From assembly GCA_045539625.1 (NCBI GenBank), contig JAZQFS010000042.1:171-64170 (forward strand): a stretch of DNA of 64,000 nt, written 5' to 3'. The translations under genes and the position numbers were made by a program. Source of the stretch: Eubacteriales bacterium. GTDB taxonomy: Bacteria > Bacillota > Clostridia > Oscillospirales > CAG-382. The notes under the pieces were generated by a model. That model worked only from the letters and a program-made list of their open reading frames with translations, had not been told where the DNA came from and searched no databases. Positions 7,192 to 51,124 of the stretch are shown here, piece by piece (position 1 is the first letter of the stretch; the number at the start of each line of letters is the position of its first letter).

Positions 7192-7361
7192 ATTAATTTC
7201 GTATTTTTTGCTTTCCAAACCATTTCCTCCAAAACCATTCCGATACCTGAGAATTATAATACTTTTCGGCGCAAAATTCAAGGGTTATATGTTAATATTC
7301 CTCCACAAAAACAAAAGCACCGTCCCAGCTTTAAACAAGGACGGTGCAAAAATGTATTTGA

Positions 7362-9572: not shown

Positions 9573-9695
9573 TCATTCTTCGTCCTGTGTTGTGCCGAAA
9601 AGAGTACTTACATCAATAAGAGTATCGCTGTTATTAAGAATATCCTCTTGTGTCAGCACACAGATTTCAAGCCGGGGACTGTGATACTTTTTCAT
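9573..9695 (-). CDS. 40-aa acidic small protein, paralog of 19422..19544, function unknown
   Basis: ATG at 9695 with GGAG about 12 nt upstream, TGA at 9573-9575. Sequence: MKKYHSPRLEICVLTQEDILNNSDTLIDVSTLFGTTQDEE. It lies 30 nt upstream of the secreted-protein (pseudo)gene. Below the ORF-track length cutoff. Supported by conservation with the second copy. Confidence 0.55.
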   Translation of the reverse strand: MKKYHSPRLEICVLTQEDILNNSDTLIDVSTLFGTTQDEE

Positions 9696-9869
9696 TTTTC
9701 TTACCGTCTCCGCTTATCAAATATGAATAAAATATCTATACGATTTTATAGTACGACTTCATTAAAATAAATTCAAGAAAAGAAATATCAAAATATAGAA
9801 ATATTTTCAATCGGCTATTGAAATTTATTTTGTTTTATAGTAGTATTTTCTATGAAGGAGGCGATTTTT

Positions 9870-12301: not shown

Positions 12302-15300
12302 TTACTCAACAACCGTTACAACAAAATTATCCATCATTGCAATGTAATTGGTAAATGTCGTTTTATCACCCTTGGGGTCAACAAATACGGTAAATTCATC
12401 TGTTTCACGTGCAGGACTTGCTTCGCTGACGGTAAAGATAAAGGAATGTCTTACCCAGCCGTCGGAGGTGTTCTGTGTCACAACCTCTTTATTAAGAGGA
12501 TGGTCTACCGAGCCTGTGACAGCACCGTTCTTCACGTCTGTATATCTGGGATTTACCTTTGCCGTAACGCCAACGCCTGCATTTCCGTCAAGGTCGGAAA
12601 TAATTCTCAGGTCAAATTCAACCTTATAGGTTGTGCCTGCCTTGAAGCCTGTTTTTGCTCTGAAGTATGTCCAGGTCTGCTTTTCTGATGCAGGAACAAG
12701 CTTATATGCGTGGTTACCGGCTCTCAAATCATCCTCAACTATTGTTACGGTTGTTGAGCCTGTTGTAAGATTTGCTCTGCTGTTTACGTCCTCGGCATCG
12801 GCGTTTTCAATAAAGAAGGGACCGCCCTCAAGACCTGCCTTTACAGCCTCTTCACGCTTTTTCTGCATTTCCTGCTCTGCTGCAAGATAATCCTTTGTTT
12901 CCTCATTGGGAGTTACTCGGATATAGTCGATTTCATAGAAGCCGCCGTAATTGCCGGGATCTATTCTTAAGGTTGTTACGTTTGTCGTCCACTTTTCGTT
13001 TTTGTTACAATCAAACCTTACGGTAACAAAGCCTTCGGCATCAGGTGTAAGAGACTTATAGGATGACCTGAAGGTTTTCTTTTCGTCAAGACCTGTTTCC
13101 GCTGTTGTTGCAAAATATACCGCCAAGCCGTCCGTTCCAAAGTCAACACCTTCCGAATACAAAGGTCTGTAACGTATCTCAATTACGTTGTAAACATCGG
13201 TGTTAATAAACACACCCTTATTGACTATCTGAGGATCATATCCTGTTTTATTATAGCTTACGGGAGTTGCGGTCAAAACATACTTTCCGTCTAAAACAGC
13301 ACCTGTTGCCGAGCTTGCAGTAAAGCCCTCGGTATCACCGGGAATGTTAAATTCAAAGCTGTTTTCAACCTTTTCCGTACTGATTACCTCGTCTTCTCTT
13401 ACAGTTACCTTAAGCTCGTACTCGTTTTCTTCAAGCTTATAGCCGAAGGTCTCGCAAAGCAGCTTAAAGGGTACTGTCACAATTCCGTCAACCTTATATA
13501 TGGGCTTTGCAACCGTTACGGTCTTTCCGTCAACAATTACCTTATCGCTGCCCACCTCAAGGTGCATTTTGCTTCCGTTATTGCCGAAAACATCAAGCGT
13601 TCCGTTTACTCTGTTATACTCGTAGTAAAGGTTAAGTCCCGAATAAAAGCCAAGCTTGGGTTCTGCTGCAATTAAGTATTCATTATCCAGCTTTTCAATA
13701 AAGTTTTTGCCAATCGGGAATTCCGTGCCGTCTACGTTAAGGGTATATGAGCCGATTTCCTTATCTGTCAAGAATTCAAAGCACTTAATATAGAATTTAC
13801 AAGCATACTGTGCAGGATCAAAGCGAACGCCTGTAATATCGCCCTTCCAGAATGTATTTTTGGTAAGATCAATGTAATAATCATGATATTCGCCGTCAGC
13901 AATTACATTGGAAAAAATTCCCTTATCGGCTGACCACGTTTCATTTGCTCTGTTTACGAAGTAAAGCTGAACCTGAGTAGGCTGTGTTGCTTCAAGCTTG
14001 ATGGAAAGGTGAAGCTTTGTTGCTTCATCGGCATTAAACAGAGCCACTCCTGTATTTACCGTTTTGATATTGCCGTCTGTGCCTGTGGTTTCACCTACAA
14101 GTGCCTTTTCCTGTTCATCAAAATAGATGTCTTTGCATTGGTTCATCTTACTCCAAGACAAGACGTCCTTCTGATTTTCAAAATTCCATATTTTAACAGG
14201 CTGATACTCAATGTCGGAACCTGCATCCTGCATAAATCTTTCACGCTTCATGGGAACGCTCTTTGCAGGATACAAATAGCCAAGTCTTGCCTTCTGGTTA
14301 TCTGTAGGCTCAACGTCAAAGTGTGCTTTATCGTCCTTACCTGCAACAGAGGAGAATACTGCACGGTTACAGTCAACATAGCCGAACTTATTGAGGTTTG
14401 AAGGCATAATATAATGTCCTTCGCCGTATTCGTTCCAGGTTGTATGGAACACCATCTTGCTTATCCAGCTATTCTCTGCCCTTTCGGCAATGAGAGGAAT
14501 ATAAGTATCCTTTGACCACTCCATAACCTCTCTGTGTGCTTCAACCGTTGCAAGAGGAGCTCTTTCCTCTGTCCAGCCTATATCATTGAAGCCAACGCCG
14601 ATTGCGGGAACAAGCGGTACACCGTTCATATTATACGCCTTCATCATAGCATCCTTCTGATACTGTGCGTCGTACGCAAATTCTCCGAAGGTATAGCTGA
14701 GAAGTCCTTCAAAGCTAAGCTCCTTTGCCTTGTTCATCATTTCTTCGGTATAGCCGTTAAAGGTAGGACAGCCAAAAAGCACAACGCCGTCATAGCCAAG
14801 GCGCTTTATATCCTCGTTCATAAAGGCTACAGCTTGCTTTGCACTCTCCATACCGCCCATATTTTTAACGAAGATATCCAGACTGTAAATGGTAATGGGT
14901 GCTCTGTTTTCAATTCTCAGGTATCTTGAATCGTTAAAGTACCATTCGCACCAATAGGGCCAAACGTAGTTATAGAAAAAGTCGGGATTGCTGTAAGTAC
15001 AGCTCTGGTTTTCCCACATAATCATCATATCCATCATATCGGAATACTTTGCGTTCATAAAGCCGTTTGTGATAGCATCCGAAAGGCGGGTATCCTTAAT
15101 AGGCTCACTGCCAAGTGCACCCAAATACCAGCAGTAATGCTGGAAGTCATAGCCGTGTTCAACAAAGAACTTGATTTCCCAGTCGGCAACTTCAGGCAGA
15201 CCTTCATCATAGTAGCCGAGAACAGGGGTGATTTCGTCATAGGGTGAAATGCAGTCCCAGCCGTAGTGAGAGCCTTCTCTCCACAGCGAGCATACGCTCA

Positions 15301-17086
15301 TACCAACAAGCCACTCGTCGTCTGTTACGGGAACAGGCTTTGCTACGTAGTCTGCGTAATCATACACATTATACAATTCAACGTCGTCAAACCAAAGCAC
15401 GTCGCTGCCGCTGTTTACGATTTCAATACCGTCAACTGCATCTGCCGAAAGGTCAACCGTTGCAAACACTTTATTATTGAGCTTGATAACAGCTTTATCC
15501 GCTTCTGTATCGCCTTCGATTCTTACCGACTGCCAGCTTCTTGCGTCAAATTCACGAAGGAGCTTGCCGTTACAGGTGAATTTCTGAGCATCAAATTCTA
15601 TCTTCAATGCATCATTTGCACCGTTTTTAAGTGCAACGTAGCCCTTACCCTGCTTTGTGGGAAGAAGAAAGGTTTCGTACACGAATTTTCCGTTGACAGG
15701 AGCAAACTTCTTGCTTGCACTGCCCGCACCGTCAAGCTTTACGCTGTTTGTATCATAATCCGAGCTCTTAATGTTTTCAACAGTAGTTTTTCCGCTTACA
15801 TTCCAGCCCCATGGCGTCTCACCCAAATTTGAATAGAAGAAGGAGTCGTTAACGTCATAGTTAACATACATCTTTGTCTTTGACGCAGTTAAAGCAAGCT
15901 TATCCTCTTTTGTTGTGGCATAGCTCATTCTTGCAAGGTCTTTTGCAGACTTATTCATGGAAAATGTACCTATATTTTTACCGTCTGCAACAACTGTCGC
16001 CTCATCTTTATCAAGGTCAAGCTCAAAATACAGCTTTTTCAGCTTTGTATATTCACTTACCGCCGTGTTTGTCGCCTGCTCTTTATCTCCAAAAGCCACA
16101 TACTTACCGTCGGTAATACACAGCTTGAACAAATCTGTTCCCTCTGAGTCGGTAAAGATAACCTCAGCTCCGTTATCCGAGCTTGCCGTAAACGCAGACT
16201 CAACCTTAACGATGCCTTTTGTCTGAACGGTTACATCTCTGTGAAGAGCTGTTCTTGCCTTATCTGATACATCGGAAATGGAGTTTGAGGTTTTTTCCTC
16301 GGTGCTTACCACCATTGTTCCCATATTCTCATATCTCCAGCCGGAGGCAACCATGGTTGTTCCTCGAACAGTTCTCACCATTGTCATATCATCAATGAGG
16401 TAAACTGCCTGTTCTCTATTGCCGTATTCCTTTAAAGTGCCCGATACTCTGTTTTCGGGAAGTGCAACTCTATTGATAATTGCGCTTGTTTCGCTTCTCT
16501 TGATTGAGTTTGTAGCATAGAAGTTACCGTAATCGTCAGAGCCGAGAACAACACCTGCACGGTAGAGCATCATAAGCTCATCATAGTAATCTTCTGTTTC
16601 TGCTACGTCGGGAATATCCTTAATATCGTTTTTAGGTGTGAAATAGCTTTCGGGCATTGCATTTGCAAAGAGAAGAGCCATTTCGTATCTCATAATATTG
16701 CGGTCATAGTTTGTGTACTGATTTTCCTCTATAAGACCGTTAGCCTTAGCATATTCGACATACATATCATACCACTTGCCGCCTGTTTTTTCGGCAATTG
16801 TCTTACCGTTATAAATGGAATGTACACATGTTGCCATTGTAATACCTTCGGCAACGGTAACATTTCCTTCGGGAACATAAAGAGTGTCGCTCTTACCGTT
16901 TACAAAACCAAGTTCATATGCACTTTTTACATCAGAAGCATACCATGCCGTGCTTTTTACATCTGCAAACTGACCGTCTGTGTAGGTATTTGTTTTGGTA
17001 AAGCCCTTTGCCTGGGAAGCGGTAACAAGTGCCGCTGCTGCAAGTGACACCGAAAGAATTGCTTTAAGCATTTTGTTCTTAATCAT
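12302..17086 (-). CDS. SLH-anchored giant surface protein with a GH99-like/WbsX-like central domain and several CBM-like beta-sandwich modules
   Basis: Signal peptide MIKNKMLKAILSVSLAAAALVTASQA; start at 17086 is preferred (AAGGAG 6 nt upstream). Three SLH-type repeats (FADVKSTAWYASDVKSAYELGFVNGKSD...). The central region (VGMSVCSLWREG...PVLGYYDEGLPEVADWEIKFFVEHGYDF...HTTWNEYGEGHYIMPS) is paralogous to the 370-aa GH99-like protein at 19704..20816. There is a copper-amine-oxidase-N-like stalk (VDGKTVTVAKPIYKVDGIVTVPFKLL) and a terminal CBM-like module. Confidence 0.85.
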   Translation of the reverse strand: MIKNKMLKAILSVSLAAAALVTASQAKGFTKTNTYTDGQFADVKSTAWYASDVKSAYELGFVNGKSDTLYVPEGNVTVAEGITMATCVHSIYNGKTIAEKTGGKWYDMYVEYAKANGLIEENQYTNYDRNIMRYEMALLFANAMPESYFTPKNDIKDIPDVAETEDYYDELMMLYRAGVVLGSDDYGNFYATNSIKRSETSAIINRVALPENRVSGTLKEYGNREQAVYLIDDMTMVRTVRGTTMVASGWRYENMGTMVVSTEEKTSNSISDVSDKARTALHRDVTVQTKGIVKVESAFTASSDNGAEVIFTDSEGTDLFKLCITDGKYVAFGDKEQATNTAVSEYTKLKKLYFELDLDKDEATVVADGKNIGTFSMNKSAKDLARMSYATTKEDKLALTASKTKMYVNYDVNDSFFYSNLGETPWGWNVSGKTTVENIKSSDYDTNSVKLDGAGSASKKFAPVNGKFVYETFLLPTKQGKGYVALKNGANDALKIEFDAQKFTCNGKLLREFDARSWQSVRIEGDTEADKAVIKLNNKVFATVDLSADAVDGIEIVNSGSDVLWFDDVELYNVYDYADYVAKPVPVTDDEWLVGMSVCSLWREGSHYGWDCISPYDEITPVLGYYDEGLPEVADWEIKFFVEHGYDFQHYCWYLGALGSEPIKDTRLSDAITNGFMNAKYSDMMDMMIMWENQSCTYSNPDFFYNYVWPYWCEWYFNDSRYLRIENRAPITIYSLDIFVKNMGGMESAKQAVAFMNEDIKRLGYDGVVLFGCPTFNGYTEEMMNKAKELSFEGLLSYTFGEFAYDAQYQKDAMMKAYNMNGVPLVPAIGVGFNDIGWTEERAPLATVEAHREVMEWSKDTYIPLIAERAENSWISKMVFHTTWNEYGEGHYIMPSNLNKFGYVDCNRAVFSSVAGKDDKAHFDVEPTDNQKARLGYLYPAKSVPMKRERFMQDAGSDIEYQPVKIWNFENQKDVLSWSKMNQCKDIYFDEQEKALVGETTGTDGNIKTVNTGVALFNADEATKLHLSIKLEATQPTQVQLYFVNRANETWSADKGIFSNVIADGEYHDYYIDLTKNTFWKGDITGVRFDPAQYACKFYIKCFEFLTDKEIGSYTLNVDGTEFPIGKNFIEKLDNEYLIAAEPKLGFYSGLNLYYEYNRVNGTLDVFGNNGSKMHLEVGSDKVIVDGKTVTVAKPIYKVDGIVTVPFKLLCETFGYKLEENEYELKVTVREDEVISTEKVENSFEFNIPGDTEGFTASSATGAVLDGKYVLTATPVSYNKTGYDPQIVNKGVFINTDVYNVIEIRYRPLYSEGVDFGTDGLAVYFATTAETGLDEKKTFRSSYKSLTPDAEGFVTVRFDCNKNEKWTTNVTTLRIDPGNYGGFYEIDYIRVTPNEETKDYLAAEQEMQKKREEAVKAGLEGGPFFIENADAEDVNSRANLTTGSTTVTIVEDDLRAGNHAYKLVPASEKQTWTYFRAKTGFKAGTTYKVEFDLRIISDLDGNAGVGVTAKVNPRYTDVKNGAVTGSVDHPLNKEVVTQNTSDGWVRHSFIFTVSEASPARETDEFTVFVDPKGDKTTFTNYIAMMDNFVVTVVE

Positions 17087-17107
17087 ATTCTTCTCCTTAT
17101 TTTGGGG

Positions 17108-17140
17108 AAGCAAGGCAGAAATTATGCTTCTGCCCTGCTT
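17108..17140 (-). promoter_or_regulatory. intercistronic stem-loop between the 747-aa and 1603-aa genes (no T-run)
   Basis: AAGCAAGGCAGAA-n7-TTCTGCCCTGCTT, a 13-bp stem with one mismatch. It fills most of the 62-nt gap between the stop at 17149 and the start at 17086. Confidence 0.35.
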
Positions 17141-17148
17141 ATTGTCTT

Positions 17149-19392
17149 TTAAAGCTCTTCGCCTGCAAGTATTTTATCTACTGCATCCTTGAAAGACTCA
17201 TATTTATCAGATGCCTTAAGTCTTTCAGCAACCTCATAAATACTTGCGGACATTGCTTCGCCGTAGGTTACATTTTCGCCAATCTTTACATAAGGTCTTA
17301 CAACGATTACGTCCTTATACATATTTGCGGGAATGTTATATACAACTGCTGTAAAGAAGGTTTCATTTTCCTTCGTTTCAAAGATTCTGTCTACCTTTTT
17401 ATCTCCTACCGTACCGTAGCTTACGCCCTGTACATAGTGTGTACCCTTTGTAAGGTTTATGTTTTCCATTGTGAAGTCTGACTTTTCAACGCCAAGAGTT
17501 GTAAGAATTGTCTGTCTTGTTACAATATAGCCGTATTCCGCAAGGTCTGCGTTTTCTCTTACAAGCTTATGAACACTTGCCTTGAAGCGAAGTCCCGAGG
17601 GATCGTCTACACGGATTGAGTTTTCGCTGTAGGAAGTGGGTGCATTGATAGGCTGATAGTAAACCTTGAAGTTATCGGCAAAAAGTCTGTAGCGTGTCTG
17701 AGTTGTACTGGCAGAAGCTACAGTGTAGCTGAAGCCCATGGCAAAAAGTGTATCCTTATCATACGCTCTGGCTGAGCCGCCGTTAAAATAAACATTACCG
17801 TCATAAACAACTATCTGCTGAGCCTGAACATAAGTGGTTTTTCCCTTTTCAAGGTCAATCTTTGAACCTGCAATATCGGCAGTCTTTGTTGTTCCGTTTG
17901 TTGTCTTTTTCGCTTTAACATAGGGTGAAACCTTTACGTATTTTACAAGGTCATTGGCTTCAACGGTAAACTCTGCATACATTGTATAAATACCGTCTGC
18001 AAAGGTCTTGGTTGTGTCAGAAAGCTGCAAAGTCATATTAGGCCATACTTCACCGTCTGCTTTTGCATTTGTATCACCGGCAGATACAAATTCGTCGTCA
18101 AGTGCCGAAATGTCCTTGAGTTCGTAGTTTGCTCTTGAAAGTCCCTGTGTTGTAAACTGAATATCGCAAGGAATTGCATTGCTGTACGCTTCGCCCTTAT
18201 AACCGCCTGAGGTTTCAAGTGTCTTATTCTGGAAATGAGTGTAATGTATACCGTGATTGAAGTGTGCGTGAAACAGAAGCTTTCCTCCTGCAGGTACTTC
18301 TGTGGGAGCATAATAGTTATCGTCCCAGATTGCGTAAAGTGTTGTATGTTCGCTCAATGTAATGGAGGTTACAACCTTACCCTTGGGTGATGTTGCCCAA
18401 CCTACAAAGCGGCTTGTGCCCACATCACTCAGCTTTGTTGCCGAAAGGTCAAGTGTTCCCTTCTGTGCCGTAAGCTTTGCGGGAAGATCTGTAACTGTTT
18501 TGCCGTTTGCATCAAATGTCACAACTGCGTGTGTGGGTGCACATTCAAGAGGCTTGTAGTACATCTGCAGATTATCAATATATACATAGGAAGTTGATGC
18601 AGCCGTAAACTTAGGAATAAAAATAAGTCCGAATTTCTTCACGGTAGAATTTGTATAAGTCTGAACTGCAGCCAATGCTCCCGAGTTATTGTAAACATAC
18701 GCCTTGCCCTCATATACAAAAACGTCCATGGACATATATGTTGCTGTGCCGTTTACTGTATCAAGATTCTTTTTGTATGCTGTGCCAAGTCCACTATCAC
18801 CGCCGTTATAAAACAGTGCGCTGTACTGAACATATTCAAGGTTTGTGTTGGGATTTACGGAAAGCTCTGCACAGATTGTGTAGTGACCGTCTGCAAAAGC
18901 ATTATTTTCACCGTCACCTGCTCTGAAGTAAAACAGAGGATAATTTTCACCTGCGGCTGTTGCCGTGTTTTTAATAGCAAGTGCATCGTCTGCAGTTGTA
19001 AAGCCTGTGTTTGAAACAGAAGCATATTCTCCCGCTGTTGCACTTTGCCAGTCAATATAAATTTTATTATTGCCGTTTGTTCCCGTAACAATTGAGGGTA
19101 CTGTGCCGTTTTCGTTAAAATCAGCACCGTATGTACCGTATTTTGTTACTGCCTGATAGTTTGCAATTGCTGCACCGTTATTATAGGGCACATCAAATAC
19201 AAGCTTACTGCCTTCGGGAATGGTGTAGCTCTCCATTGAAAGCTCTGCCTGTTCCTCACCAACCTCCGGCAAAGTCGGTACATCTACCGCTTCACTTGTT
19301 GTTTCAACCGTTCCTACCATAGTGGGTGCCGCATAGGACAGAGTTGATAAAAGCATCACTAATGCAAGAATTAAGCTAAAATTTCTTTTCAT
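17149..19392 (-). CDS. secreted modular protein (two beta-sandwich modules, Listeria-Bacteroides-type repeat, conserved C-terminal domain)
   Basis: Signal peptide MKRNFSLILALVMLLSTLSYAAP. Modules end IDNLQMYYKP and ADNFKVYYQP. Repeat: VVTFDANGKTVTDLP...FVGWATSPKGKVVTSITLSEHTTLYAIWDD. The C-terminal domain SYSENSIRVDDPSGLRFKASV...VIVVRPYVKIGENVTYGEAM is shared with 7362..9542. Confidence 0.8.
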   Translation of the reverse strand: MKRNFSLILALVMLLSTLSYAAPTMVGTVETTSEAVDVPTLPEVGEEQAELSMESYTIPEGSKLVFDVPYNNGAAIANYQAVTKYGTYGADFNENGTVPSIVTGTNGNNKIYIDWQSATAGEYASVSNTGFTTADDALAIKNTATAAGENYPLFYFRAGDGENNAFADGHYTICAELSVNPNTNLEYVQYSALFYNGGDSGLGTAYKKNLDTVNGTATYMSMDVFVYEGKAYVYNNSGALAAVQTYTNSTVKKFGLIFIPKFTAASTSYVYIDNLQMYYKPLECAPTHAVVTFDANGKTVTDLPAKLTAQKGTLDLSATKLSDVGTSRFVGWATSPKGKVVTSITLSEHTTLYAIWDDNYYAPTEVPAGGKLLFHAHFNHGIHYTHFQNKTLETSGGYKGEAYSNAIPCDIQFTTQGLSRANYELKDISALDDEFVSAGDTNAKADGEVWPNMTLQLSDTTKTFADGIYTMYAEFTVEANDLVKYVKVSPYVKAKKTTNGTTKTADIAGSKIDLEKGKTTYVQAQQIVVYDGNVYFNGGSARAYDKDTLFAMGFSYTVASASTTQTRYRLFADNFKVYYQPINAPTSYSENSIRVDDPSGLRFKASVHKLVRENADLAEYGYIVTRQTILTTLGVEKSDFTMENINLTKGTHYVQGVSYGTVGDKKVDRIFETKENETFFTAVVYNIPANMYKDVIVVRPYVKIGENVTYGEAMSASIYEVAERLKASDKYESFKDAVDKILAGEEL

Positions 19393-19421: not shown

Positions 19422-19544
19422 TTAGTTTTGGGTTTCGCCAAACAATTCACTTCCGTCAATGAGAACATCGCTGCCGTTAAGAATGTCTTCAATTGTCAAA
19501 AGTACCGTCTCAACTTGGGGACTTAAATATTTTTTCTTATTCAC
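19422..19544 (-). CDS. 40-aa acidic small protein, paralog of 9573..9695, function unknown
   Basis: GTG at 19544 with AGGAAG 8 nt upstream, TAA at 19422-19424. Sequence: (M)NKKKYLSPQVETVLLTIEDILNGSDVLIDGSELFGETQN. It lies 29 nt upstream of the 747-aa gene. Same length and same position as the other copy. Confidence 0.55.
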   Translation of the reverse strand: MNKKKYLSPQVETVLLTIEDILNGSDVLIDGSELFGETQN

Positions 19545-19571
19545 AAAACCCACTTCCTTTCCTATAAGTAT

Positions 19572-19635
19572 ATATTATCATCATTTTTTGCCATCGTGAA
19601 TGGATATTGTTTGCAGCAAGATGTATATAACAGGC
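19572..19635 (-). promoter_or_regulatory. promoter plus AraC-like operator (two 16-bp direct repeats, 21-bp phasing) for the small-ORF/747-aa/1603-aa unit
   Basis: Read on the minus strand: GCCTGTTATATACATC (19635-19620), n5, GCAAACAATATCCATT (19614-19599). The second repeat overlaps the -35 TTCACG (19600-19595). A 17-nt spacer leads to the -10 TAATAT (19577-19572). Geometry is identical to the site at 20869..20932. Confidence 0.5.
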
Positions 19636-19703: not shown

Positions 19704-20816
19704 TTATTCTTCGTCAAGAAAAACCTTCTTGGCAGCCTTCAAATATCCGTAGCCGTTAAGGTCATCGGGCTGGAGATAGCTTGTTTCCGTCCATTCATTC
19801 CAGCTGTTGACGGTAATAAGCGGTGCTTCAAGCTCCGGGTGATTATCAATATATTCCTTCATCATTTCAAAGCCCTTCTTTATGCTTTCGGGCTTACAGT
19901 CATGGCAGATATTATTTGAAAGCTTCTTGTATCTGGGATTTGGATCCCATCCCATTGAAATATGAGGGTAGAAGGGATGCTTTATATTCTTTTCAATATA
20001 GTCCCACTCTGCTCTTACATCTTCAAGCACCTCGTCGTAGGTTCTGTTCATGGGAATATAGTCTACAAAATTATAATGTGTTACGCCGTCAAGGTTTGCC
20101 ATATTGATAAAGTCAAAAATGGTGGTATTTTCGTCAAGCTTTCTGTCCATATAGTTATTTCTTCTTCTGATGGTAAGAAGAAGCTCAAGACCGGGATAGC
20201 CTGCCTTTACCGTTTCTTCACGGAAATACTGCAAAGCATCAAGCGTCTGCTGTACACCGCCAAGACCTCGTACAAGATTCTGCAGGTCAAAGAGAAGATA
20301 TACGGGCTTGCCGTCAATCTTATAGTAGCAAGGGTGAGAAAAATACTTCTCAATTGTACGCTTTACGATAATCTTATCGAAGGTTTCTCTGTTTACCGCA
20401 CCGTCCCATATGGGTGTATGAAGGTCAGCGGTTCTTGTATCCCACTGGCTTTCGGCGGTGTGGTTTGCCCACATGAGGAAAAACTTCATTTTATGGTTAT
20501 TTCTCGCCTTAAGGAAGCCGTTATCAAGGCACTGTTCAAGAAAAGGTCTGTTATCGTACCAATACCAGTCATATATAAACACATTGATACCGTGGCTTGT
20601 TGCCGCCTCAATTTCCATTTCCATAACATACGGATCGGCTTCGTTTACATATCCCCAAAGAGGTTTTCTCGGCCATTGATGACCGGGGAACTTTGGTTGC
20701 ATCGCCTTCACCGTCTGCCACTCACCGTAGCCCTCGGGCCAGAATATTCTGCTTCTTGGCTCATCGCCTGTGTAAGAGGGCCATATATATGCCGCTACAT
20801 CATACTTCTTTTTCAC
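19704..20816 (-). CDS. GH99-like / WbsX-family (PF14307-type) protein, cytoplasmic
   Basis: Family-typical N-terminus AAYIWPSYTGDEPRSRIFWPEGYGEWQTVKAMQPKFPGHQWPRKPLWGYVNEADPYVMEMEIEAATSHGINVFIYDWYWYD and C-terminal SWNEWTETSYLQPD. No signal peptide. GTG start with AAGGAAG RBS. Confidence 0.85.
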   Translation of the reverse strand: MKKKYDVAAYIWPSYTGDEPRSRIFWPEGYGEWQTVKAMQPKFPGHQWPRKPLWGYVNEADPYVMEMEIEAATSHGINVFIYDWYWYDNRPFLEQCLDNGFLKARNNHKMKFFLMWANHTAESQWDTRTADLHTPIWDGAVNRETFDKIIVKRTIEKYFSHPCYYKIDGKPVYLLFDLQNLVRGLGGVQQTLDALQYFREETVKAGYPGLELLLTIRRRNNYMDRKLDENTTIFDFINMANLDGVTHYNFVDYIPMNRTYDEVLEDVRAEWDYIEKNIKHPFYPHISMGWDPNPRYKKLSNNICHDCKPESIKKGFEMMKEYIDNHPELEAPLITVNSWNEWTETSYLQPDDLNGYGYLKAAKKVFLDEE

Positions 20817-23917: not shown

Positions 23918-26900
23918 TCAGCTTACCGAAAAGCTTTCATCAACGCTTTCACAAAGGGGTTTCAATGAACCAAGACTGTCAAACAGCATAATCTTATAGC
24001 TGCAAACACCCTCGGCATCAAAATTAAAGACTGCCGCCGTGTTTTGTGCCGATACGGGTTTTATCTGCATACCAATATAACTGCCGTTTTCGCCGTAAAG
24101 TGCAAGGACAGCTTGGGCATTATCCACGCCCTCGTCAAGTACGGCGTTATAAGTGCAGAAATACTGCGTTTTTACCGTCTCGCCGTTTTCGTTCACTTCT
24201 GCAACCGTCACAACGGCACTGTCAGAGGCTATCAAACCCAGCTTATTTTGGTATTCTCTGACAAGAGTCTGACTGCCCTGTGCTTTTACGTATCTTGAAT
24301 TTGCTTCAAGTGTTTTTTCTCCAAGATCAATTTCAACATAGCCCTGAGGTTTATTTGTTCCTGTCACAACTACATTTGCATCGCCACTTGCCGAAAGTGT
24401 GCCCTGTGCATCAATTTCCCCGAAGATATAGTTTCCTGCACCCAAAGTCATACAAGCGTCCTTATGGATATTCACCTTATCTGCCGTCACGAGGTATTGT
24501 CCCGAAGAAATTACGGTATTCTTATGAATATTGATTTCACGAAGCTTCATATCCCCCGTCACATTTTCAAGGCTTCTTTCAAATTCAATATAGTCAACGG
24601 TAAGTGCCGCATCAATACAGTTTGGAACAAGTCTGAAGCCTGTTATTATGCCCGTAACATCTGAAATATCAAAGGAATACTCATTCATTAATGTATCGGG
24701 AATACTCTTTGTACAGGTTATTTCTCCGTCTTTTGTTGTAAGCACAAGTGTAAGAGATGCAGGAACAACGTCAATCATGGAAATTGCAAGCTTTGTATTA
24801 AAGCAGGAGTATTTTTCAGCATCAACAAGCAGGGTGCTGTCATAGATGGAAACACCGCCCTCATAGGAGGTAACGCTTGCAATACCGTTCTGCACCTTTC
24901 CGTGGAAGCCGCCGAGAGAAATGCCCTCTGTATCGCCGTCTGTTTCAAAGTACCAGCTATCGGCATATTCCCAAACAGCGTACACTGTCACGTTTTTATC
25001 GGCAGTTACCGTCTTGACTGTCTTTTCGCTTCCCTCTTCCGTTGTCCAGCCCTTGAACTTATAGCCTGTTCTTTCGGGAACAATTGACGAGAGTGTATAT
25101 TCTCCCTTGGCATAAGCATCGCTTTCGGGAAGACCTGTAACCTCATCATCTGCACCTGCCGAGTATGAAACGGTATAGCAGGGTGTCTGTCCTGTTACGG
25201 TAAATGTTCTTTCGGCAAAAATCGTATCGTCATATGCACATACTGCCTTTACCGTCACCGTACCGTTATTTACGGGTGTGACAGTGCCGTCAGCACCGAT
25301 TGTTGCAATTCTTTCATCATCAACGCTCCAGTTAACCTTATCCGTTGCATCGTCAAGTGTTACCCTGACGGAAAGAGATGTTTCTTTGCTTATTACATCA
25401 TCGCCCAAAATTTCAATGCTGTCTGGCATATAGATATACTGAGCTTCAATTACACGGGGTATTGCCTGTCGGAGCTGTGCAAATACACGCTTTGCAATTT
25501 CGTCCATACCAAGGTCACCTGGATGGCTTCTGAACTCGATTCTTCCGTCGCCAAGAAGGTCATCATAGCCCGGATACTGAGCATATGCAAGGTAAGGATT
25601 ATACTTCCAGCCGCTATTTCCTCTGTCGTAGGTTACGCCGTCCTTTACAAGATACCTGTTATCAGGATTAACCACGCTGTAGGAGTTAATATCTCTCATA
25701 TCGGCAACGTAAAAGCCGTAAACCTTTGCGTATTCCATTGCAGCCCTTGCTCTGTTACAATCGGAAAAGCTTGTGATTATCACAACAACGGAATTTTCAG
25801 GTTTATGCTCTTTGATTTTAGCATACAGCGTATCGTAGAACAGGCACGCCACCTCATAATTATCGGTTTTTAAGTTTTCACCAAGCTGGATTGTGATAAT
25901 ATCGGGCTTTTCGGTTTCAAGGTGCTCTATTCTGTCGGCAAGTGAATTTACAATACTGTTCTTACTGTATTCCTTATCCCAGCCCTCAAAGTTTGTGGTA
26001 TCGTTTGAATCGGCAAGTCCCTTCTTCCATGCAGCCTCTGTATCGGAGCTTGCGAAAACCTCGCCTGTCACCTTTGAATTAAGCTCTGTTCTTAAGTAAT
26101 ACTGTATTCTATGGAAATAGTCAAGCTCAGGATCTGATGCCGCCATTCCTCGAAGCGGCTCATCTGCCTTCATCCATATTGAATAGTTTGGATTATAGCC
26201 GTGACGCAGGTATGAGTTACCGATACTCATAAGCTTTAAGTCATAAACCAACGTCTTTTTTCTCTGTCCCGATATTTCTATTTCAACGCTGTCGGTTGCG
26301 TTTTTATCGGCAAAAGCTGTTGCCGTTACAACAACCGTTCCGTTACCGAGAGCAGTAAGTGTAACCGTACCGTCATCGGCAATATCAAGTCTTGCAATAT
26401 TTGTATCGCTTAACGTATAGTCAACCGATTCATCTTCAAGTGCAATATTTGAAAACAGCCGAGAGGTCAGCGTTACACTGCCGCCGTCAAGTGTGATTTT
26501 ATCATCAGAGGCTGTAAGGCTCAGTGCCGCCTGCAACGGCGTTCCCTCGTTAGGGTTGGTTTTGGAAAAATACATTTCGTCCACCTCTATATTATTCATT
26601 TTCTGATAAGTTACAGGCTTTTTCACATAGTAAAAATCGCCGTCTTTTTCATCGTATACTCCGTCACTGTCAACGTCATACAGGAAGTATTCGTTGGAAA
26701 TGATTGAGCCTGTTATATTGGCAAACATCATTTTTGCGAAATATTCGCCGTTTGCACCGCTTACAAGAGGTCTTAAATCAAGGACGTAGGTTTTATAATC
26801 CGTTGTCATATAAAAGCTTTGAGACACTTTCATAGCTGCGGTATACACAGGGTTTGAGCCGAAGCCCGGGTATACGGAGATACCTCTTTCACCTGCGCTG

Positions 26901-29488
26901 TCGCTTCTTGCAACAACGCAAAGATAGGGATGGGTAGCAATAGACACCTTTTCTGAAAGTATGGATACAGGATTGCTGATGCTTCCGCTTGTATGCTTTT
27001 TCACCTTATACACGCTTTCGCCGTTGACGGTGGTTTCGGTGAGCATTGCACCTGCGGCAGAGGTAAGATCGGGTGTCTTTGCAAAGGTTGACACAATATT
27101 CACGGAAGTGCCTGTATTTGTTGTTGCAAAGCTATGGTAGCCGCCTGAAGTAAAGCCTGTATTTGAAGGATCGTTAAAATCCCATTTATATGCAACATTT
27201 TCAGATATGTCAGGCTCTTCGCTTGTTGTGTAAACATTTACAAACTCGGTATTTGTGCCCGACGTGTTGAGGTTGAAGGCAAGCATAAAGTCATCGATAT
27301 ACTTTGCACCCTCTGTAATATTGGTAAGCTCGCAAAAGCCCGTCTTTGTTCCGTCGCCGTTTGACACAAACTCCGAAATATATGCCCAGCACTTTCTGTT
27401 ATTATCAAAGCCTGTTTCCTTATCCGTTTTATAGTACACGGTTATGCAATTATCGGCGGTGCTGTCTTCGGTAATGGTTATCACAAAATACTTCTGAGTT
27501 GCAGGGGCGCTTGTATTTATAAATCTGATGCCGCCGCTTGTTGCGGTATTTTTGGTATAGGTGACCTTAAGGTTACCGTCGGTTGTAAAATCTGCTGTTG
27601 TGTGATGTACTCCGTTTGTATTTTTCATAAGGAACACATCGTTATAATAGGTTCCGAATTCAAGAGCACCCGATGTCTGTTCCAGAAAATCTATATAATA
27701 GCCGTACTTTGATTCATCAACGCCTACATAAATATCACGTGACACCGACACAGGCGAATTTTTATCGTTGCCTGTTACGGTAACGGTAGCGACACCTGTT
27801 TTTGCCTTGGCTCTGATTTTAAGAGTATTATCCGCCATGACTCTATAGGAAACAACGTCATTATCGTCCTTCACCGACCAGGTATAAGAGGTATCGTACA
27901 CACCTTCAAGCTCGCACGCAAACAATGCCTTAAGGTCTATTTCCTGCCCTGCCTTTGTAAGATATGTAACATCGTTGCTGAAGATATAGGAAGGATTGAC
28001 ATTAAGCGTGGGATAAAGCTTTGTGCCATGCACCGTTATGCCGTCGCCTGTCTGTGAAAGTGTGATTTTTTCTATACAGCCCTGCCAGCCTTCAAGCAAA
28101 GGAAGCTGAAGGAAAAAGTCACGTTTTTTTGTTTCGGCAGGAACGGTTATTTCCGCTTTTACGCTTGTTTTATCCGTCACAAAGGTAAATTCCAGCTTTC
28201 CGTCAAGCTGTGATGAATTGTCTGCCTTTACCGTAATATAATCGTAAGCAAAGGTATCAGCGGAAAATTCTGTCTGCTGTGCCGAAGCAAAATCAAGCAC
28301 ACAAGGCTCTGTTGCAACGGTGACGGTTCTTGTTAAGGTTTTCACCTCGGTATCGGCATAGCTAAACGTAATTACTGCATTACCCTGTGAAAGTGCCGTA
28401 AGAGTTGCGGTGCCGTCGGTATTTTTTTCAACACTTACAACGTCCGAATTACTGCTTGACCAGGATATTTTACTTACATCAATTTCAGGTTTGCCCGAAA
28501 GAGCCGCACTTGCTATTACGCTCTTATCTATTTTGTCAAGCTTTCCGTCAAGTTCAATATATGCTCCGTCAAAGGCATAGCTTTCCCTTGTTGCATACAG
28601 CACAATATCCTTATTATTATCTGCCGTCAAAGCAATTGAGGTAACAGGCACACCGCCCACCTCTGATGCCCAGCCTGCGTATGTAGTAAGTCCTGCAGAA
28701 ATTTCTGAGGGTGTAGAGCTTGTAAGCAGGTTTCCCTCCTCATCTGCTGCAATATAGTCTGTTTTTACTACATTCTTTCCGTCTGCACTGTAATAGGTCA
28801 CCTTATATGCAGGTGCCACAATCATATTATCAAAGTAGTACATAACATCTGCCGTATCCGAAGCCGTAGTCTGTGATGTAAACACAAGTCTGTGGCAGTA
28901 GGTACTGCTGACGGGAGAACCGGTCTGGTTAAGCGAAAGCGCATCAACTATTTTTCCGTAGCTTTGCCGGCCTTTTGTATAATCCACGGAAAAGCTCTGA
29001 ATGGAGTCGGCGGGAACCGCTCTTGCTCCCATTATCCAGAAAGCTTTCTTGTCGGTATACTTTCCTTCCTCCGACACCGCTTTATCATAATCAAAGGCGA
29101 TATACAGATGATTATGTCCTACAAGCGAGCCAAGATCTGAGCCGAAAGGAACAATCATATAAAAATAATCTGCATTCGCATCTTCGGGAAGCAGCCATCT
29201 GATAACGGTATCTTTTTCGTTATCGGGGTTCTTTACGGCTGAAAGAACACCCTTTCCCGAATCAATTTTCACTGCAAGGCTATCAAAATTTTCTCCTGTC
29301 AGCGGCTCTTTTGTGCCTGTCAGAATATTGATTCCGCGGCTGACAACGGTTTCGCCGTAAAGCTCAGAAAGGTCTGCGTTTACCTGTTCCGATGCCGTTC
29401 CTGTGTTTTCTGAAGGTACGGTAGCCGAAAACGCCGTCAAAGAAAAAATCAAACCAAGCAAAAGGAGTATGCCTAAAAGCTTTTTCAT
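23918..29488 (-). CDS. giant secreted modular protein with Ig-like (Big_2-type) domains, an SGNH/GDSL-type hydrolase domain and Listeria-Bacteroides-type repeats
   Basis: Signal peptide MKKLLGILLLLGLIFSLTAFSA. Big_2-like segments (ISWSSSNSDVVSVEKNTDGTATLTALSQGNAVITF; LSDTNIARLDIADDGTVTLTALGNGTVVVTA; WSVDDERIATIGADGTVTPVNNGTVTVKA). SGNH blocks: LKLMSIGNSYLRHG (I), IITIQLGENL (III), FRSHPGDLGMDEIAKRV (V). Repeat: YTVSYSAGADDEVTGLP...YKFKGWTTEEGSEKTVKTVTADKNVTVYAVWEY. No SLH or LPXTG motif seen. Confidence 0.85.
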   Translation of the reverse strand: MKKLLGILLLLGLIFSLTAFSATVPSENTGTASEQVNADLSELYGETVVSRGINILTGTKEPLTGENFDSLAVKIDSGKGVLSAVKNPDNEKDTVIRWLLPEDANADYFYMIVPFGSDLGSLVGHNHLYIAFDYDKAVSEEGKYTDKKAFWIMGARAVPADSIQSFSVDYTKGRQSYGKIVDALSLNQTGSPVSSTYCHRLVFTSQTTASDTADVMYYFDNMIVAPAYKVTYYSADGKNVVKTDYIAADEEGNLLTSSTPSEISAGLTTYAGWASEVGGVPVTSIALTADNNKDIVLYATRESYAFDGAYIELDGKLDKIDKSVIASAALSGKPEIDVSKISWSSSNSDVVSVEKNTDGTATLTALSQGNAVITFSYADTEVKTLTRTVTVATEPCVLDFASAQQTEFSADTFAYDYITVKADNSSQLDGKLEFTFVTDKTSVKAEITVPAETKKRDFFLQLPLLEGWQGCIEKITLSQTGDGITVHGTKLYPTLNVNPSYIFSNDVTYLTKAGQEIDLKALFACELEGVYDTSYTWSVKDDNDVVSYRVMADNTLKIRAKAKTGVATVTVTGNDKNSPVSVSRDIYVGVDESKYGYYIDFLEQTSGALEFGTYYNDVFLMKNTNGVHHTTADFTTDGNLKVTYTKNTATSGGIRFINTSAPATQKYFVITITEDSTADNCITVYYKTDKETGFDNNRKCWAYISEFVSNGDGTKTGFCELTNITEGAKYIDDFMLAFNLNTSGTNTEFVNVYTTSEEPDISENVAYKWDFNDPSNTGFTSGGYHSFATTNTGTSVNIVSTFAKTPDLTSAAGAMLTETTVNGESVYKVKKHTSGSISNPVSILSEKVSIATHPYLCVVARSDSAGERGISVYPGFGSNPVYTAAMKVSQSFYMTTDYKTYVLDLRPLVSGANGEYFAKMMFANITGSIISNEYFLYDVDSDGVYDEKDGDFYYVKKPVTYQKMNNIEVDEMYFSKTNPNEGTPLQAALSLTASDDKITLDGGSVTLTSRLFSNIALEDESVDYTLSDTNIARLDIADDGTVTLTALGNGTVVVTATAFADKNATDSVEIEISGQRKKTLVYDLKLMSIGNSYLRHGYNPNYSIWMKADEPLRGMAASDPELDYFHRIQYYLRTELNSKVTGEVFASSDTEAAWKKGLADSNDTTNFEGWDKEYSKNSIVNSLADRIEHLETEKPDIITIQLGENLKTDNYEVACLFYDTLYAKIKEHKPENSVVVIITSFSDCNRARAAMEYAKVYGFYVADMRDINSYSVVNPDNRYLVKDGVTYDRGNSGWKYNPYLAYAQYPGYDDLLGDGRIEFRSHPGDLGMDEIAKRVFAQLRQAIPRVIEAQYIYMPDSIEILGDDVISKETSLSVRVTLDDATDKVNWSVDDERIATIGADGTVTPVNNGTVTVKAVCAYDDTIFAERTFTVTGQTPCYTVSYSAGADDEVTGLPESDAYAKGEYTLSSIVPERTGYKFKGWTTEEGSEKTVKTVTADKNVTVYAVWEYADSWYFETDGDTEGISLGGFHGKVQNGIASVTSYEGGVSIYDSTLLVDAEKYSCFNTKLAISMIDVVPASLTLVLTTKDGEITCTKSIPDTLMNEYSFDISDVTGIITGFRLVPNCIDAALTVDYIEFERSLENVTGDMKLREINIHKNTVISSGQYLVTADKVNIHKDACMTLGAGNYIFGEIDAQGTLSASGDANVVVTGTNKPQGYVEIDLGEKTLEANSRYVKAQGSQTLVREYQNKLGLIASDSAVVTVAEVNENGETVKTQYFCTYNAVLDEGVDNAQAVLALYGENGSYIGMQIKPVSAQNTAAVFNFDAEGVCSYKIMLFDSLGSLKPLCESVDESFSVS

Positions 29489-31453: not shown

Positions 31454-31500
31454 TTTCTGTACACCTCCAATTTTAATATATTATTTATACTTTCCAAATG

Positions 31501-32427: not shown

Positions 32428-32436
32428 TTAATCACC

Positions 32437-33822: not shown

Positions 33823-33836
33823 TTATGCTCCCGATA

Positions 33837-34901: not shown

Positions 34902-34911
34902 GATGGGTGCT

Positions 34912-35931: not shown

Positions 35932-35940
35932 AGACTACTC

Positions 35941-39529: not shown

Positions 39530-39550
39530 TCCCTGATTCTTGTTTATGTA

Positions 39551-41419: not shown

Positions 41420-41425
41420 CCTCCT

Positions 41426-42781: not shown

Positions 42782-42800
42782 ATTACATCCCCTCTCTAAA

Positions 42801-44048: not shown

Positions 44049-44050
44049 TT

Positions 44051-45169: not shown

Positions 45170-45190
45170 TTTAATCACTCCAAAATTCCA

Positions 45191-50529: not shown

Positions 50530-50572
50530 GTTCTCACCTCCGAAAAGTACTTACTGCGTTTTACCGAAAACA

Positions 50573-51115: not shown

Positions 51116-51124
51116 AATTCACAC

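What the first reader, a model, noticed from the sequence alone, without database searches (positions are those of the whole stretch)
19422..19544. Conserved 40-codon acidic small ORF heading the operon of a secreted modular protein (two paralogous copies)
An unannotated ORF lies 29-30 nt upstream of each of the two paralogous secreted-protein genes (17149..19392 and 7362..9542). Both copies are the same length, and each has its own RBS.
- Copy 1 (19422..19544): (M)NKKKYLSPQVETVLLTIEDILNGSDVLIDGSELFGETQN
- Copy 2 (9573..9695): MKKYHSPRLEICVLTQEDILNNSDTLIDVSTLFGTTQDEE

By my hand count 23 of 36 aligned positions are identical. The consensus is KYxSPxxExxxLTxEDILNxSDxLIDxSxLFGxTQ.

There is no signal peptide and no TM segment, and the net charge is negative. 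Conservation of sequence, length and position across a duplication argues that it is translated and functionally tied to the downstream exported protein. Possible roles are a chaperone or escort, a secretion or regulatory peptide, or a leader-peptide-type cis regulator. I cannot assign it to any family from memory.
Basis: seen in the sequence. Interest (0 to 1): 0.65.

Follow-up and report, generated by a model that had tools for sequence, protein, structure and literature searches.

The report
Small acidic peptide partnering secreted proteins
Two 40-codon genes in this window belong to a widespread, unannotated family of about 38-residue acidic peptides in Clostridia that almost always sit right next to genes for large secreted surface proteins sharing one new C-terminal domain, so the peptide is probably a dedicated partner of those proteins, but its job is unknown.

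Summary
Two 40-codon ORFs on the minus strand (19422..19544 and 9573..9695) are 24/37 identical (E 7e-16). Each lies 29-30 nt upstream of a signal-peptide modular protein.

They are real genes:
- An exhaustive HMM search found 123 cluster representatives, nearly all 35-45 aa. Consensus: MKKxYxxPEhEhxxhSxEDILxGSDVhIDxxxLFxEE.
- Synonymous sites are saturated while dN/dS is about 0.13.
- Shine-Dalgarno sequences precede nearly all copies.
- No RNA family or stable RNA fold explains the conservation.

In 11 of 15 independent contexts (a 12th is marginal) the peptide gene directly abuts a secreted protein carrying the same unannotated ~170-aa C-terminal domain (CTD). More often it lies 12-28 nt downstream than upstream. 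One CTD protein carries the peptide core fused to its C-terminus.

Residues 1-12 resemble lasso-peptide leaders (YxxPxL), but scores are below threshold and no maturation genes are nearby.

Best reading: a disordered, acidic partner peptide that binds the co-encoded CTD protein. This is inferred, not shown. A cis-acting leader peptide is not supported. No Pfam, NCBIfam, PADLOC, PHROGs or PDB family fits.

The parts
19422..19544 (-). Small ORF copy 1: 40 codons, GTG start, (M)NKKKYLSPQVETVLLTIEDILNGSDVLIDGSELFGETQN
   Evidence: It matches the family HMM at E 1e-19. Database cluster P0001 was called from the upstream GTG.
9573..9695 (-). Small ORF copy 2: 40 codons, ATG start, MKKYHSPRLEICVLTQEDILNNSDTLIDVSTLFGTTQDEE
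   Evidence: It matches the family HMM at E 1e-19. dN/dS against copy 1 is 0.13.
17149..19392 (-). 747-aa secreted modular protein. It has a Sec-type signal peptide, then a conserved 'AP.MVGTVET' mature N-terminus, then jelly-roll-like modules and Flg_new-like repeats, then the CTD.
   Evidence: Translation. No Pfam, NCBIfam or PDB sequence hit. Homologous CTD proteins are found in the related loci.
17152..17670 (-). C-terminal domain (CTD, aa 575-747): NSIRVDDPSGLRFK...VVRPYVK...VDKILAGEEL
   Evidence: A CTD HMM hits the partner proteins in 11 contexts at E 1e-31 to 1e-60. The AF2 model is a low-confidence beta-sandwich plus two helices, pLDDT 59. Foldseek against PDB finds nothing significant.
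7362..9542 (-). Paralogous CTD protein gene, interrupted by an in-frame TAA at 8862..8864 (226 aa + 462 aa). Its CTD lies at about 7365..7880.
   Evidence: CTD HMM E 5e-58.
12302..17113 (-). 1603-aa SLH / WbsX-like / Cu_amine_oxidN1 wall-associated protein immediately downstream of the 747-aa gene. It is a recurrent neighbour of peptide-CTD pairs.
   Evidence: Pfam. Homologues lie next to the peptide in L009, L018, L020 and L031.
19704..20816 (-). 370-aa WbsX-like protein without a signal peptide, ending 160 nt upstream of copy 1
   Evidence: PF14307, E 8e-45.
19567..19594 (-). Promoter-like site (ATGGCA-16-TATACT) just upstream of copy 1
   Evidence: This is a consensus match only.
9764..9791 (-). 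Promoter-like site (TTGATA-16-TATTTT) upstream of copy 2
   Evidence: This is a consensus match only.
9852..10853 (+). AraC-family regulator, divergent from copy 2. AraC-type genes recur near family members.
   Evidence: AraC genes are also present in L001, L025 and L028, but they share only the HTH region.
5860..7281 (-). MATE transporter 80 nt downstream of the interrupted paralogue, on the same strand
   Evidence: MatE also occurs about 4 kb upstream of the peptide in L025 but is absent from most contexts.

Best explanation
Shown: each small ORF is a genuine protein-coding gene of a previously unannotated family of about 38-residue, strongly acidic peptides. The peptides have no signal peptide, no transmembrane segment and almost no cysteine. 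The family occurs in Clostridia (Eubacteriales MAGs). The gene is co-transcribed, and often translationally coupled, with a Sec-secreted modular surface protein that ends in a conserved, unannotated ~170-aa C-terminal domain (CTD).

Inferred: the peptide is a dedicated binding partner of that CTD protein. It is disordered on its own. It consists of:
- an N-terminal leader-like strand (MKKxYxxPxh);
- a DILxGS-DVhID hairpin-like core resembling a strand-turn-strand of bacterial Ig-like repeats;
- an LF/LW motif and an acidic tail.

The most likely mode of action is docking by strand addition onto the CTD or onto its not-yet-exported precursor. There it would act as an escort or holdase, or as a trans-supplied C-terminal piece that controls folding, export or surface attachment of the partner. 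Where binding happens (cytoplasm or outside the cell) and what it changes are not known.
For: Coding:
- The exhaustive profile search found 123 representatives at E<=1e-3, nearly all 35-45 aa, with invariant Y and P and near-invariant D, I, S, D, L.
- Between the window copies pS is 0.72 and pN 0.26 (dN/dS 0.13). Close relatives L024/L025 give 0.11.
- AGGAGG-like sequences lie 6-10 nt upstream of nearly all copies.

Linkage, from 15 independent contexts:
- 11 have a CTD protein directly adjacent: window x2, L001, L009/10, L013, L017, L020, L027, L028, L029, L031. A 12th (L021) is marginal, CTD HMM E 0.0075.
- The spacings are 12-28 nt (peptide downstream) or 29-37 nt (peptide upstream).
- One MAG carries at least 4 copies, 3 of them next to CTD genes.
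- Peptide and adjacent CTD identities co-vary weakly (Mantel r 0.34, p 0.03).

Fusion: the CTD protein L020:7491-9734 ends ...SSYADIMNGSDSDADLGELWK. It matches peptide-HMM positions 13-35 at its extreme C-terminus (domain E 7.5e-4 among 810 ORFs).

Structure:
- AF2 with 53 sequences predicts an extended chain with one short helix, pLDDT 73.
- The core also matches repeated strand-turn-strand motifs of Ig-like adhesin repeats (P0098, homologous to MpAFP RII, PDB 4p99).
Against: - No physical interaction was tested, and complex prediction was not possible with these tools.
- The partner proteins have classical Sec signal peptides, so they cross the membrane unfolded, while the peptide has no export signal. 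A stable extracellular complex therefore needs an unexplained export route.
- The fusion is a single case from one MAG and could be an accidental deletion.
- Profile-profile comparison of the peptide and CTD families finds nothing.
- One subfamily (L023-26, L033-34) is not next to a CTD gene. It heads a ThuA / 139-aa / UDP-galactopyranose mutase / GT2 operon. One copy (L019) is an orphan.
- The CTD model is of low confidence.
Confidence: 0.4

Rival explanations
1. The peptide is a RiPP-type precursor (lasso-like or another leader-dependent class) or an exported signalling peptide. Residues 1-22 would be a leader recognised by an RRE-type domain, and GSDVLIDGSELFG... would be the core. The maturation and export genes would lie elsewhere in the genome.
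For: - The N-terminus matches the lasso leader motif YxxPxL. PDB 6jx3 (TfuA leader, KKKYTAPQL) scores E 0.48. NCBIfam NF033528 (lasso_cyano) is hit weakly by 11 of 79 members, best E 0.014. The motif is described in PMC10368454.
- Rumen Clostridia lasso leaders have the same layout (PMC7533575).
- Under this reading the Y-to-core distance is 18 in 99/119 members, G is at +1 in 76/119, an acidic residue is at core position 7 in 82/119, and the median core length is 17.
- The peptide is disordered.
Against: - The HMM match covers only profile positions 1-11 of 35 and scores 15.4 bits against a cutoff of 33.
- The residues needed for lasso chemistry are not the conserved ones. Position +1 is N, K, T, L, Q, E, M, R or D in a quarter of members, and N in window copy 2. 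Position -2 is Leu/Met, not Thr/Ile/Val. The invariant residues are instead S(+2), D(+3), D(-4) and I(-3).
- No PqqD/RRE, transglutaminase-like protease, Asn-synthetase-like cyclase, radical SAM maturase, YcaO, LanM, ATP-grasp or C39 transporter appears in the annotated genes of the 64-kb window or in any of the 15 contexts.
- The linkage is to CTD proteins.
Confidence: 0.15
2. The peptide is an immunity- or antitoxin-like inhibitor. It would neutralise an activity of the CTD inside the producer, as small acidic immunity proteins do when encoded just downstream of colicin or polymorphic-toxin C-terminal domains.
For: - A small acidic ORF lies 12-28 nt downstream of a large secreted protein's C-terminal domain in 7 contexts, 8 with the marginal L021.
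- There are several diverged copies per genome.
- Peptide and CTD co-vary weakly.
Against: - The CTD is the conserved part and the N-terminal modules vary, which is the reverse of polymorphic toxins.
- The CTD has no toxin, Pfam or PADLOC match.
- 38 aa is far below known immunity proteins.
- The peptide is more conserved than the CTD (33-73% against 27-62% identity).
- Peptide-first, orphan and ThuA-operon contexts do not fit.
Confidence: 0.1
3. The peptide is a free-standing small regulatory protein, for example one that modulates an AraC-type regulator or envelope-glycan synthesis. Its link to CTD genes would be co-regulation, not binding.
For: - AraC-type genes flank several contexts: the window, L001, L025 and L028.
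- The ThuA-GLF-GT2 context and the orphan copy show that the peptide can exist away from CTD genes.
- The window is rich in surface-polysaccharide and c-di-GMP genes.
Against: - The AraC proteins share only their HTH region and are absent from most contexts.
- The tight 12-15 nt coupling to CTD genes and the C-terminal fusion point to a stoichiometric partner.
Confidence: 0.1
4. The ORF is a cis-acting leader peptide (uORF or arrest peptide) controlling the downstream secreted-protein gene.
For: In the window, L013 and L017 the ORF lies 29-37 nt upstream of the big gene.
Against: - In most contexts it lies downstream of the big gene. In L019, L027 and L031 the next gene is convergent, and in L021 it is an unrelated gene about 400 nt away.
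- The whole peptide sequence is conserved across highly diverged loci.
- No terminator or alternative structure fits in the spacer.
- The downstream genes have their own strong RBS.
Confidence: 0.04
5. The conservation reflects an RNA or DNA element, not a protein.
For: None found.
Against: - Synonymous sites are saturated while the amino-acid sequence is kept.
- No Rfam hit overlaps either small ORF at E<=1.
- RNA folding z-scores are -0.57 and -0.39.
- The flanking DNA does not align beyond the ORF and the RBS of the next gene.
Confidence: 0.01

Closest known systems
Lasso-peptide precursor peptides (leader YxxPxL recognised by the RRE/B1 protein; e.g. TfuA/fusilassin, paeninodin, NCBIfam NF033528)
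   Same: - Similar size (about 38 aa).
- MKKxYxxPxh N-terminus with invariant Y and P.
- A hydrophobic residue two positions before a frequent Gly.
- Frequent Asp seven residues after that Gly.
- A bulky F/W downstream.
- Disordered on its own.
   Different: - Scores are below threshold and cover the leader only.
- The ring-forming residues are not the conserved ones.
- There is no Thr/Ile/Val at -2.
- No B1/B2/C/D genes lie nearby.
- The conserved neighbour is a secreted CTD protein instead.
Small acidic immunity proteins encoded downstream of colicin or polymorphic-toxin C-terminal domains
   Same: A small acidic ORF a few nucleotides after a large secreted protein's C-terminal domain, in multiple diverged copies.
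   Different: - The C-terminal domain is conserved rather than polymorphic and has no toxin signature.
- The peptide is far smaller.
- It is sometimes upstream of the big gene, or alone.
Dedicated secretion chaperones and escorts (small acidic partners of exported proteins) and trans-acting propeptides
   Same: Small, acidic, cytoplasmic by sequence, and co-expressed one-to-one with a specific exported partner.
   Different: - Known examples are folded proteins of 100 aa or more and serve non-Sec systems.
- There is no sequence or structural similarity.
- No such escort is known to me for Sec substrates in Clostridia (own knowledge).
Split or strand-donating Ig-like domains (donor-strand complementation in pili; strand-turn-strand of BIg/RII adhesin repeats, PDB 4p99)
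   Same: The peptide core (LTxEDILNGSDVLID) resembles the 'VVLTEEDIANGSVGVSF' hairpin of Ig-like adhesin repeats. The CTD is predicted, weakly, to be a beta-sandwich.
   Different: The similarity is a short motif only. No evidence shows that the CTD lacks a strand. The export topology is unexplained.

Membership tests
Lasso peptide precursor | Leader with a YxxPxL recognition motif about 17 residues before the core | tested here: met
   Y and P are invariant and a hydrophobic residue sits at P+2. The Y-to-putative-core distance is 18 in 99/119 members. Weak hits to the TfuA leader and NF033528 positions 1-11.
Lasso peptide precursor | Family HMM score above the curated cutoff | tested here: not met
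   Best score is 15.4 bits against a cutoff of 33, over profile positions 1-11 of 35 only. The window copies do not hit at E<=1.
Lasso peptide precursor | Conserved small residue (G/A/S/C) at core position 1 and ring-closing Asp/Glu at positions 7-9; Thr (rarely Ile/Val) at -2 | tested here: not met
   Only 79/119 members satisfy G/A/S/C plus D/E at 7-9. Window copy 2 has N at +1. Position -2 is Leu/Met. The invariant residues are elsewhere.
Lasso peptide precursor | Co-located B1 (PqqD/RRE), B2 protease and C cyclase genes | tested here: not met
   None among the annotated ORFs of the 64-kb window or in the 15 contexts examined. Whole genomes could not be searched.
Double-glycine-leader bacteriocin or pheromone | LSxxELxxIxGG-type leader and a C39-peptidase ABC exporter nearby | tested here: not met
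   The LTxEDILxGS spacing is two residues short of the consensus register (read from the sequence). No Peptidase_C39 or ABC exporter appears among the neighbours.
Polymorphic toxin / immunity pair | Variable C-terminal toxin domain on a conserved delivery scaffold, followed by a cognate immunity gene | tested here: not met
   The C-terminal domain is the conserved part (E 1e-31 to 1e-60 across loci) and the N-terminal modules vary. There is no toxin or defence HMM hit. The gene order is inconsistent.
Cis-acting leader peptide / attenuator | Always upstream of the regulated gene, with alternative RNA structures or a stall site | tested here: not met
   The peptide lies downstream of the partner in 7 of 11 CTD-linked contexts (8 of 12 with L021). 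No terminator-like site lies between the small ORF and the downstream gene. Folding z-scores are -0.4 to -0.6.
Any curated protein or RNA family (Pfam, NCBIfam, PADLOC, PHROGs, PDB sequences, Rfam) | A significant profile match | tested here: not met
   Source annotations are absent or read 'hypothetical protein'.
Dedicated secretion chaperone / escort | Direct, specific binding to the exported partner, and dependence of export or stability on it | not testable with these tools
   Only genetic linkage, weak co-variation and one fusion are available.

The most novel reading that the evidence does not exclude
A lasso-leader-like peptide has been recruited as a trans-acting module of Sec-secreted surface proteins. 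Its YxxPxh strand would dock on a new C-terminal sorting or anchoring domain, and its hairpin core would complete or cap that domain. This would be a split-domain or strand-donation system, or alternatively a new leader-dependent peptide class whose 'enzyme' or receptor is the CTD protein. It would define a previously unrecognised protein-sorting or assembly route in Clostridia.
Probability: 0.15. Interest if true: 0.8.

Novelty: categorically new. Interest (0 to 1): 0.58.

Why it matters
Small proteins are under-annotated. This family has at least 120 sequence clusters and several copies per genome, and no name in any source.

It has an unusually clear genetic partner, an equally unannotated C-terminal domain on large secreted modular proteins. 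These sit in loci for SLH-anchored and glycan-active wall proteins.

If the peptide binds that domain, it would reveal a new accessory step in how Clostridia fold, export or attach surface proteins.

If instead it is a leader-bearing precursor, it would be a RiPP-like class found without its enzymes.

Either way, the peptide-CTD pair gives a simple, testable handle on two families of unknown function.

Tried and rejected
1. Pfam, NCBIfam, PADLOC and PHROGs scans of the peptides and the 747-aa protein found nothing significant.
2. A PDB sequence search with the peptide profile gave only marginal hits: RPC1 N-terminus E 0.06, TfuA leader 0.48, MpAFP RII 0.94. I treat RPC1 as chance.
3. Profile-profile comparison of the peptide against the CTD showed no relation.
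4. I tested whether CTD tails generally mimic the peptide's DILNGSD motif. A PSSM rank test gave Fisher p 0.02 on non-independent sequences. It is convincing only for L020_747 and suggestive for win747 and P0168, so I do not rely on it.
5. The CTD structure model had pLDDT 59, and Foldseek against PDB had a best E of 0.14. This was uninformative.
6. A profile search for more CTD proteins returned only 4 fragments, so I could not run a family-wide scan for fused tails.
7. The genome and metagenome pattern scans returned few loci, and the viral scan returned none.
8. Rfam, terminator scans and RNA folding found no RNA explanation.
9. Read-through or frameshift fusion of the peptide to the upstream CTD gene is rejected. 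The spacers are 12, 13, 14, 15 and 28 nt, so there is no consistent frame.
10. Hand comparison with EF-hand/dockerin Ca2+ loops, the ACP phosphopantetheine motif and an N-glycosylation sequon showed that the motifs do not match or are not conserved.
11. Literature searches found no description of the family.

Full report
**Observation**

Both ORFs are present on the minus strand as described.
- Copy 1 (19422..19544) begins with GTG. An AAGGAAG Shine-Dalgarno-like sequence sits about 10 nt upstream.
- Copy 2 (9573..9695) begins with ATG.
- BLASTP gives 24/37 identities with no gaps, E 7e-16.
- The DNA alignment shows that similarity is confined to the ORF and the RBS/start of the next gene. The upstream flanks do not align.
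- The spacers to the downstream ATGs are 29 and 30 nt.
- No further copy exists in the window.

**Is it a gene?**

The evidence says yes.
- A first database search with the two copies found 11 called proteins of 37-60 aa, several with extended called starts.
- An exhaustive profile search of 1.84 billion representatives found 123 at E<=1e-3. Nearly all are 35-45 aa and start at the same MKKxY.
- The few long hits are repeat adhesins that match a short internal motif many times.
- The family consensus is MKKxYxxPEhEhxxhSxEDILxGSDVhIDxxxLFxEE. Y and P are invariant; D, I, S, D and L are near-invariant.
- Between the window copies 72% of synonymous sites differ but only 26% of non-synonymous sites do (dN/dS about 0.13). 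Close relatives give 0.11-0.28.
- AGGAGG-like sequences lie 6-10 nt upstream of nearly every homologue.
- No Rfam hit overlaps either small ORF, no terminator-like site lies between either small ORF and its downstream gene, and folding z-scores are -0.57 and -0.39.

None of them is met.

**Context**

I gathered 15 independent genomic contexts.

In 11 of them the peptide gene directly abuts a large protein with three shared features:
- a Sec-type signal peptide;
- a conserved mature N-terminus (AP.MVGTVE..);
- a shared ~170-aa C-terminal domain (NSIRVxDPxGLRF ... VVRPYVK ... helix-helix), which I call the CTD.

An HMM built from the CTD hits these partners at E 1e-31 to 1e-60. A 12th context, L021, has only a marginal CTD match (E 0.0075).

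The window arrangement is peptide, then 29-37 nt, then the CTD gene. It recurs in L013 and L017.

The commoner arrangement is the CTD gene, then 12-28 nt, then the peptide. It occurs in L001, L009/10, L020, L027, L028, L029 and L031, and in L021 if counted.
- Three times a second CTD gene lies further downstream.
- SLH/WbsX-like/Cu_amine_oxidN1 wall proteins homologous to window 12302..17113 are often nearby.

One MAG (GCA_052842715.1) has at least four diverged copies, three of them next to CTD genes.

Exceptions:
- L019 is an orphan copy.
- In L018 the contig ends just after the peptide.
- One subfamily (MKKAYEAPS..ITVF) heads a ThuA / 139-aa / UDP-galactopyranose mutase / GT2 operon in six contigs with different upstream genes.

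The source organisms are Eubacteriales (Clostridia) MAGs. L028 carries spoIIIA genes. No member was found on viral contigs.

**Hints of a physical link**

1. The CTD protein L020:7491-9734 ends ...GECYESSYADIMNGSDSDADLGELWK. This matches the peptide core of the same locus (..NEDIMNGSDTFIDVGTLWSE..) and peptide-HMM positions 13-35, at domain E 7.5e-4 among 810 ORFs. The tail lacks the N-terminal YxxP part, as expected if that part only tethers a free peptide. This is a single case and could be an accidental deletion.
2. Peptide and adjacent-CTD identities co-vary weakly (Mantel r 0.34, p 0.03). The peptide is the better-conserved partner.
3. The extreme C-termini of the window 747-aa protein (AVDKILAGEEL) and its closest relatives (TVDKILNGEEI) resemble the peptide's TIEDILNGSDV. 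A rank test is only suggestive, and profile-profile comparison finds no relation.

**What the peptide looks like**

- It is acidic (pI 4.0-4.6, charge -2.5 to -9.5), has no hydrophobic segment and almost never contains Cys.
- AF2 with 53 homologues predicts an extended chain with one short helix at EDIL (pLDDT 73). This suggests a peptide that orders only on binding.
- Residues 1-12 resemble the RRE-recognition motif of lasso-peptide leaders (YxxPxL; PMC10368454).
  - The profile hits the TfuA leader in PDB 6jx3 (KKKYTAPQL, E 0.48).
  - 11 of 79 members weakly hit NCBIfam NF033528, but only over profile positions 1-11 of 35, at 15.4 bits against a cutoff of 33.
- Read as a lasso precursor, two-thirds of members have G/A/S/C at '+1' and an acidic residue at positions 7-9.
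  - The residues lasso chemistry needs are not the invariant ones.
  - Window copy 2 has N at +1.
  - Position -2 is Leu/Met.
  - No B1/B2/C gene, or any other RiPP maturase, lies among the annotated genes of the window or in any context (and the context calls).
- The core LTxEDIL-NG-SDVLID resembles the strand-turn-strand 'VVLTEEDIANGSVGVSF' of Ig-like adhesin repeats related to MpAFP RII. This fits a beta-hairpin with an NG turn.

**The CTD**

It has no Pfam, NCBIfam, PADLOC or PDB sequence match. With only six sequences, AF2 gave a low-confidence beta-sandwich plus two terminal helices (pLDDT 59). Foldseek found nothing significant. I therefore make no fold claim.

**Mechanism**

Shown: this is a translated, selected small-protein family, co-transcribed and often translationally coupled with CTD-bearing secreted proteins.

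Inferred (confidence about 0.4): the peptide binds the CTD or its precursor, probably by strand addition through the YxxPxh strand and/or the hairpin core. It would act as a dedicated escort or holdase, or as a trans-supplied C-terminal piece.

The main difficulty is topology. Sec substrates cross the membrane unfolded, and the peptide has no export signal. Either the interaction is cytoplasmic and transient, or an unknown export route exists.

Rivals and confidences:

| Rival | Confidence | Main reason |
|---|---|---|
| RiPP or exported-signal precursor with distant maturases | 0.15 | Leader-like N-terminus, but no maturases nearby |
| Immunity-like inhibitor of the CTD | 0.10 | The conservation pattern is the reverse of polymorphic toxins |
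| Free-standing regulator | 0.10 | Orphan and ThuA-operon contexts; AraC neighbours |
| Cis-acting leader peptide | 0.04 | Contradicted by downstream and terminal positions |
| RNA element | 0.01 | Contradicted by codon-level evidence |

**Novelty**

No curated family, source annotation or paper that I could find describes the peptide or the CTD. It fails the defining tests for every known class I considered, while borrowing a lasso-type leader motif. I rate it as lying outside known kinds. The caveat is that the function is unproven.

Noticed in passing
window 8862..8864 (within 7362..9542, minus strand): An in-frame TAA ('YYIPM*DVTF') splits the second CTD paralogue into a 226-aa signal-peptide fragment and a 462-aa remainder. 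This could be a pseudogene, a split gene or a sequencing error. The small ORF upstream of it is intact.
   Followed up: partly
window 30533..53817 (minus strand): A surface-polysaccharide biosynthesis cluster (four GT2, two GT4, Wzy_C, Bac_transf, GtrII, YdjC, hexapeptide transferase). It is interleaved with four c-di-GMP signalling proteins: EAL 30533..31453, EAL 32437..33822, GGDEF 39551..41419 and dCache-GGDEF 51520..53817.
   Followed up: partly
N-termini of window 17149..19392 and 7362..9542, and of CTD proteins in L001, L013, L017, L020, L027-L029: Directly after the signal peptide, all CTD proteins share a conserved acidic motif ('AP.MVGTVE[ST]A.E' or 'AIGMVGVE[ST]ADE'). Both ends of these proteins are therefore conserved while the middle modules vary. 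This may be a second sorting or anchoring signal.
   Followed up: no
L020:7491-9734 (MAG GCA_052842715.1, contig JAZMYC010000051): This CTD protein's C-terminus carries the peptide core (..SSYADIMNGSDSDADLGELWK*) in place of the usual terminal helices. It is followed by a terminator-like hairpin.
   Followed up: partly
L023-L026, L033, L034: A peptide subfamily (MKKAYEAPS..ITVF...) is conserved upstream of a ThuA / 139-aa acidic protein / UDP-galactopyranose mutase / GT2 operon, not next to a CTD gene. The genes upstream of the peptide differ between L025 (TrmO) and L033 (CtpB-like peptidase).
   Followed up: partly
family members P0043, P0069, P0073, P0078, P0086, P0120: A subfamily carries a 10-20-aa C-terminal extension ending in a conserved 'SEYTGEPIEE' motif.
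   Followed up: no
window 23918..29488 (minus strand): A 1856-aa signal-peptide protein with Big_2 and Flg_new domains. It shares modules with the CTD proteins but has no CTD and no adjacent peptide gene.
   Followed up: no
peptide profile against PDB: The top hit of the family profile is the N-terminus of RNA polymerase III RPC1 (residues 16-41, 'LEFSALSAADIVAQSEVEVSTRDLFD', E 0.06). This is probably chance, but it covers 26 of the 38 profile positions.
   Followed up: no
window 54407..55405 (minus strand): A GGGtGRT-family protein (PF14057, E 5e-195) of unknown function.
   Followed up: no
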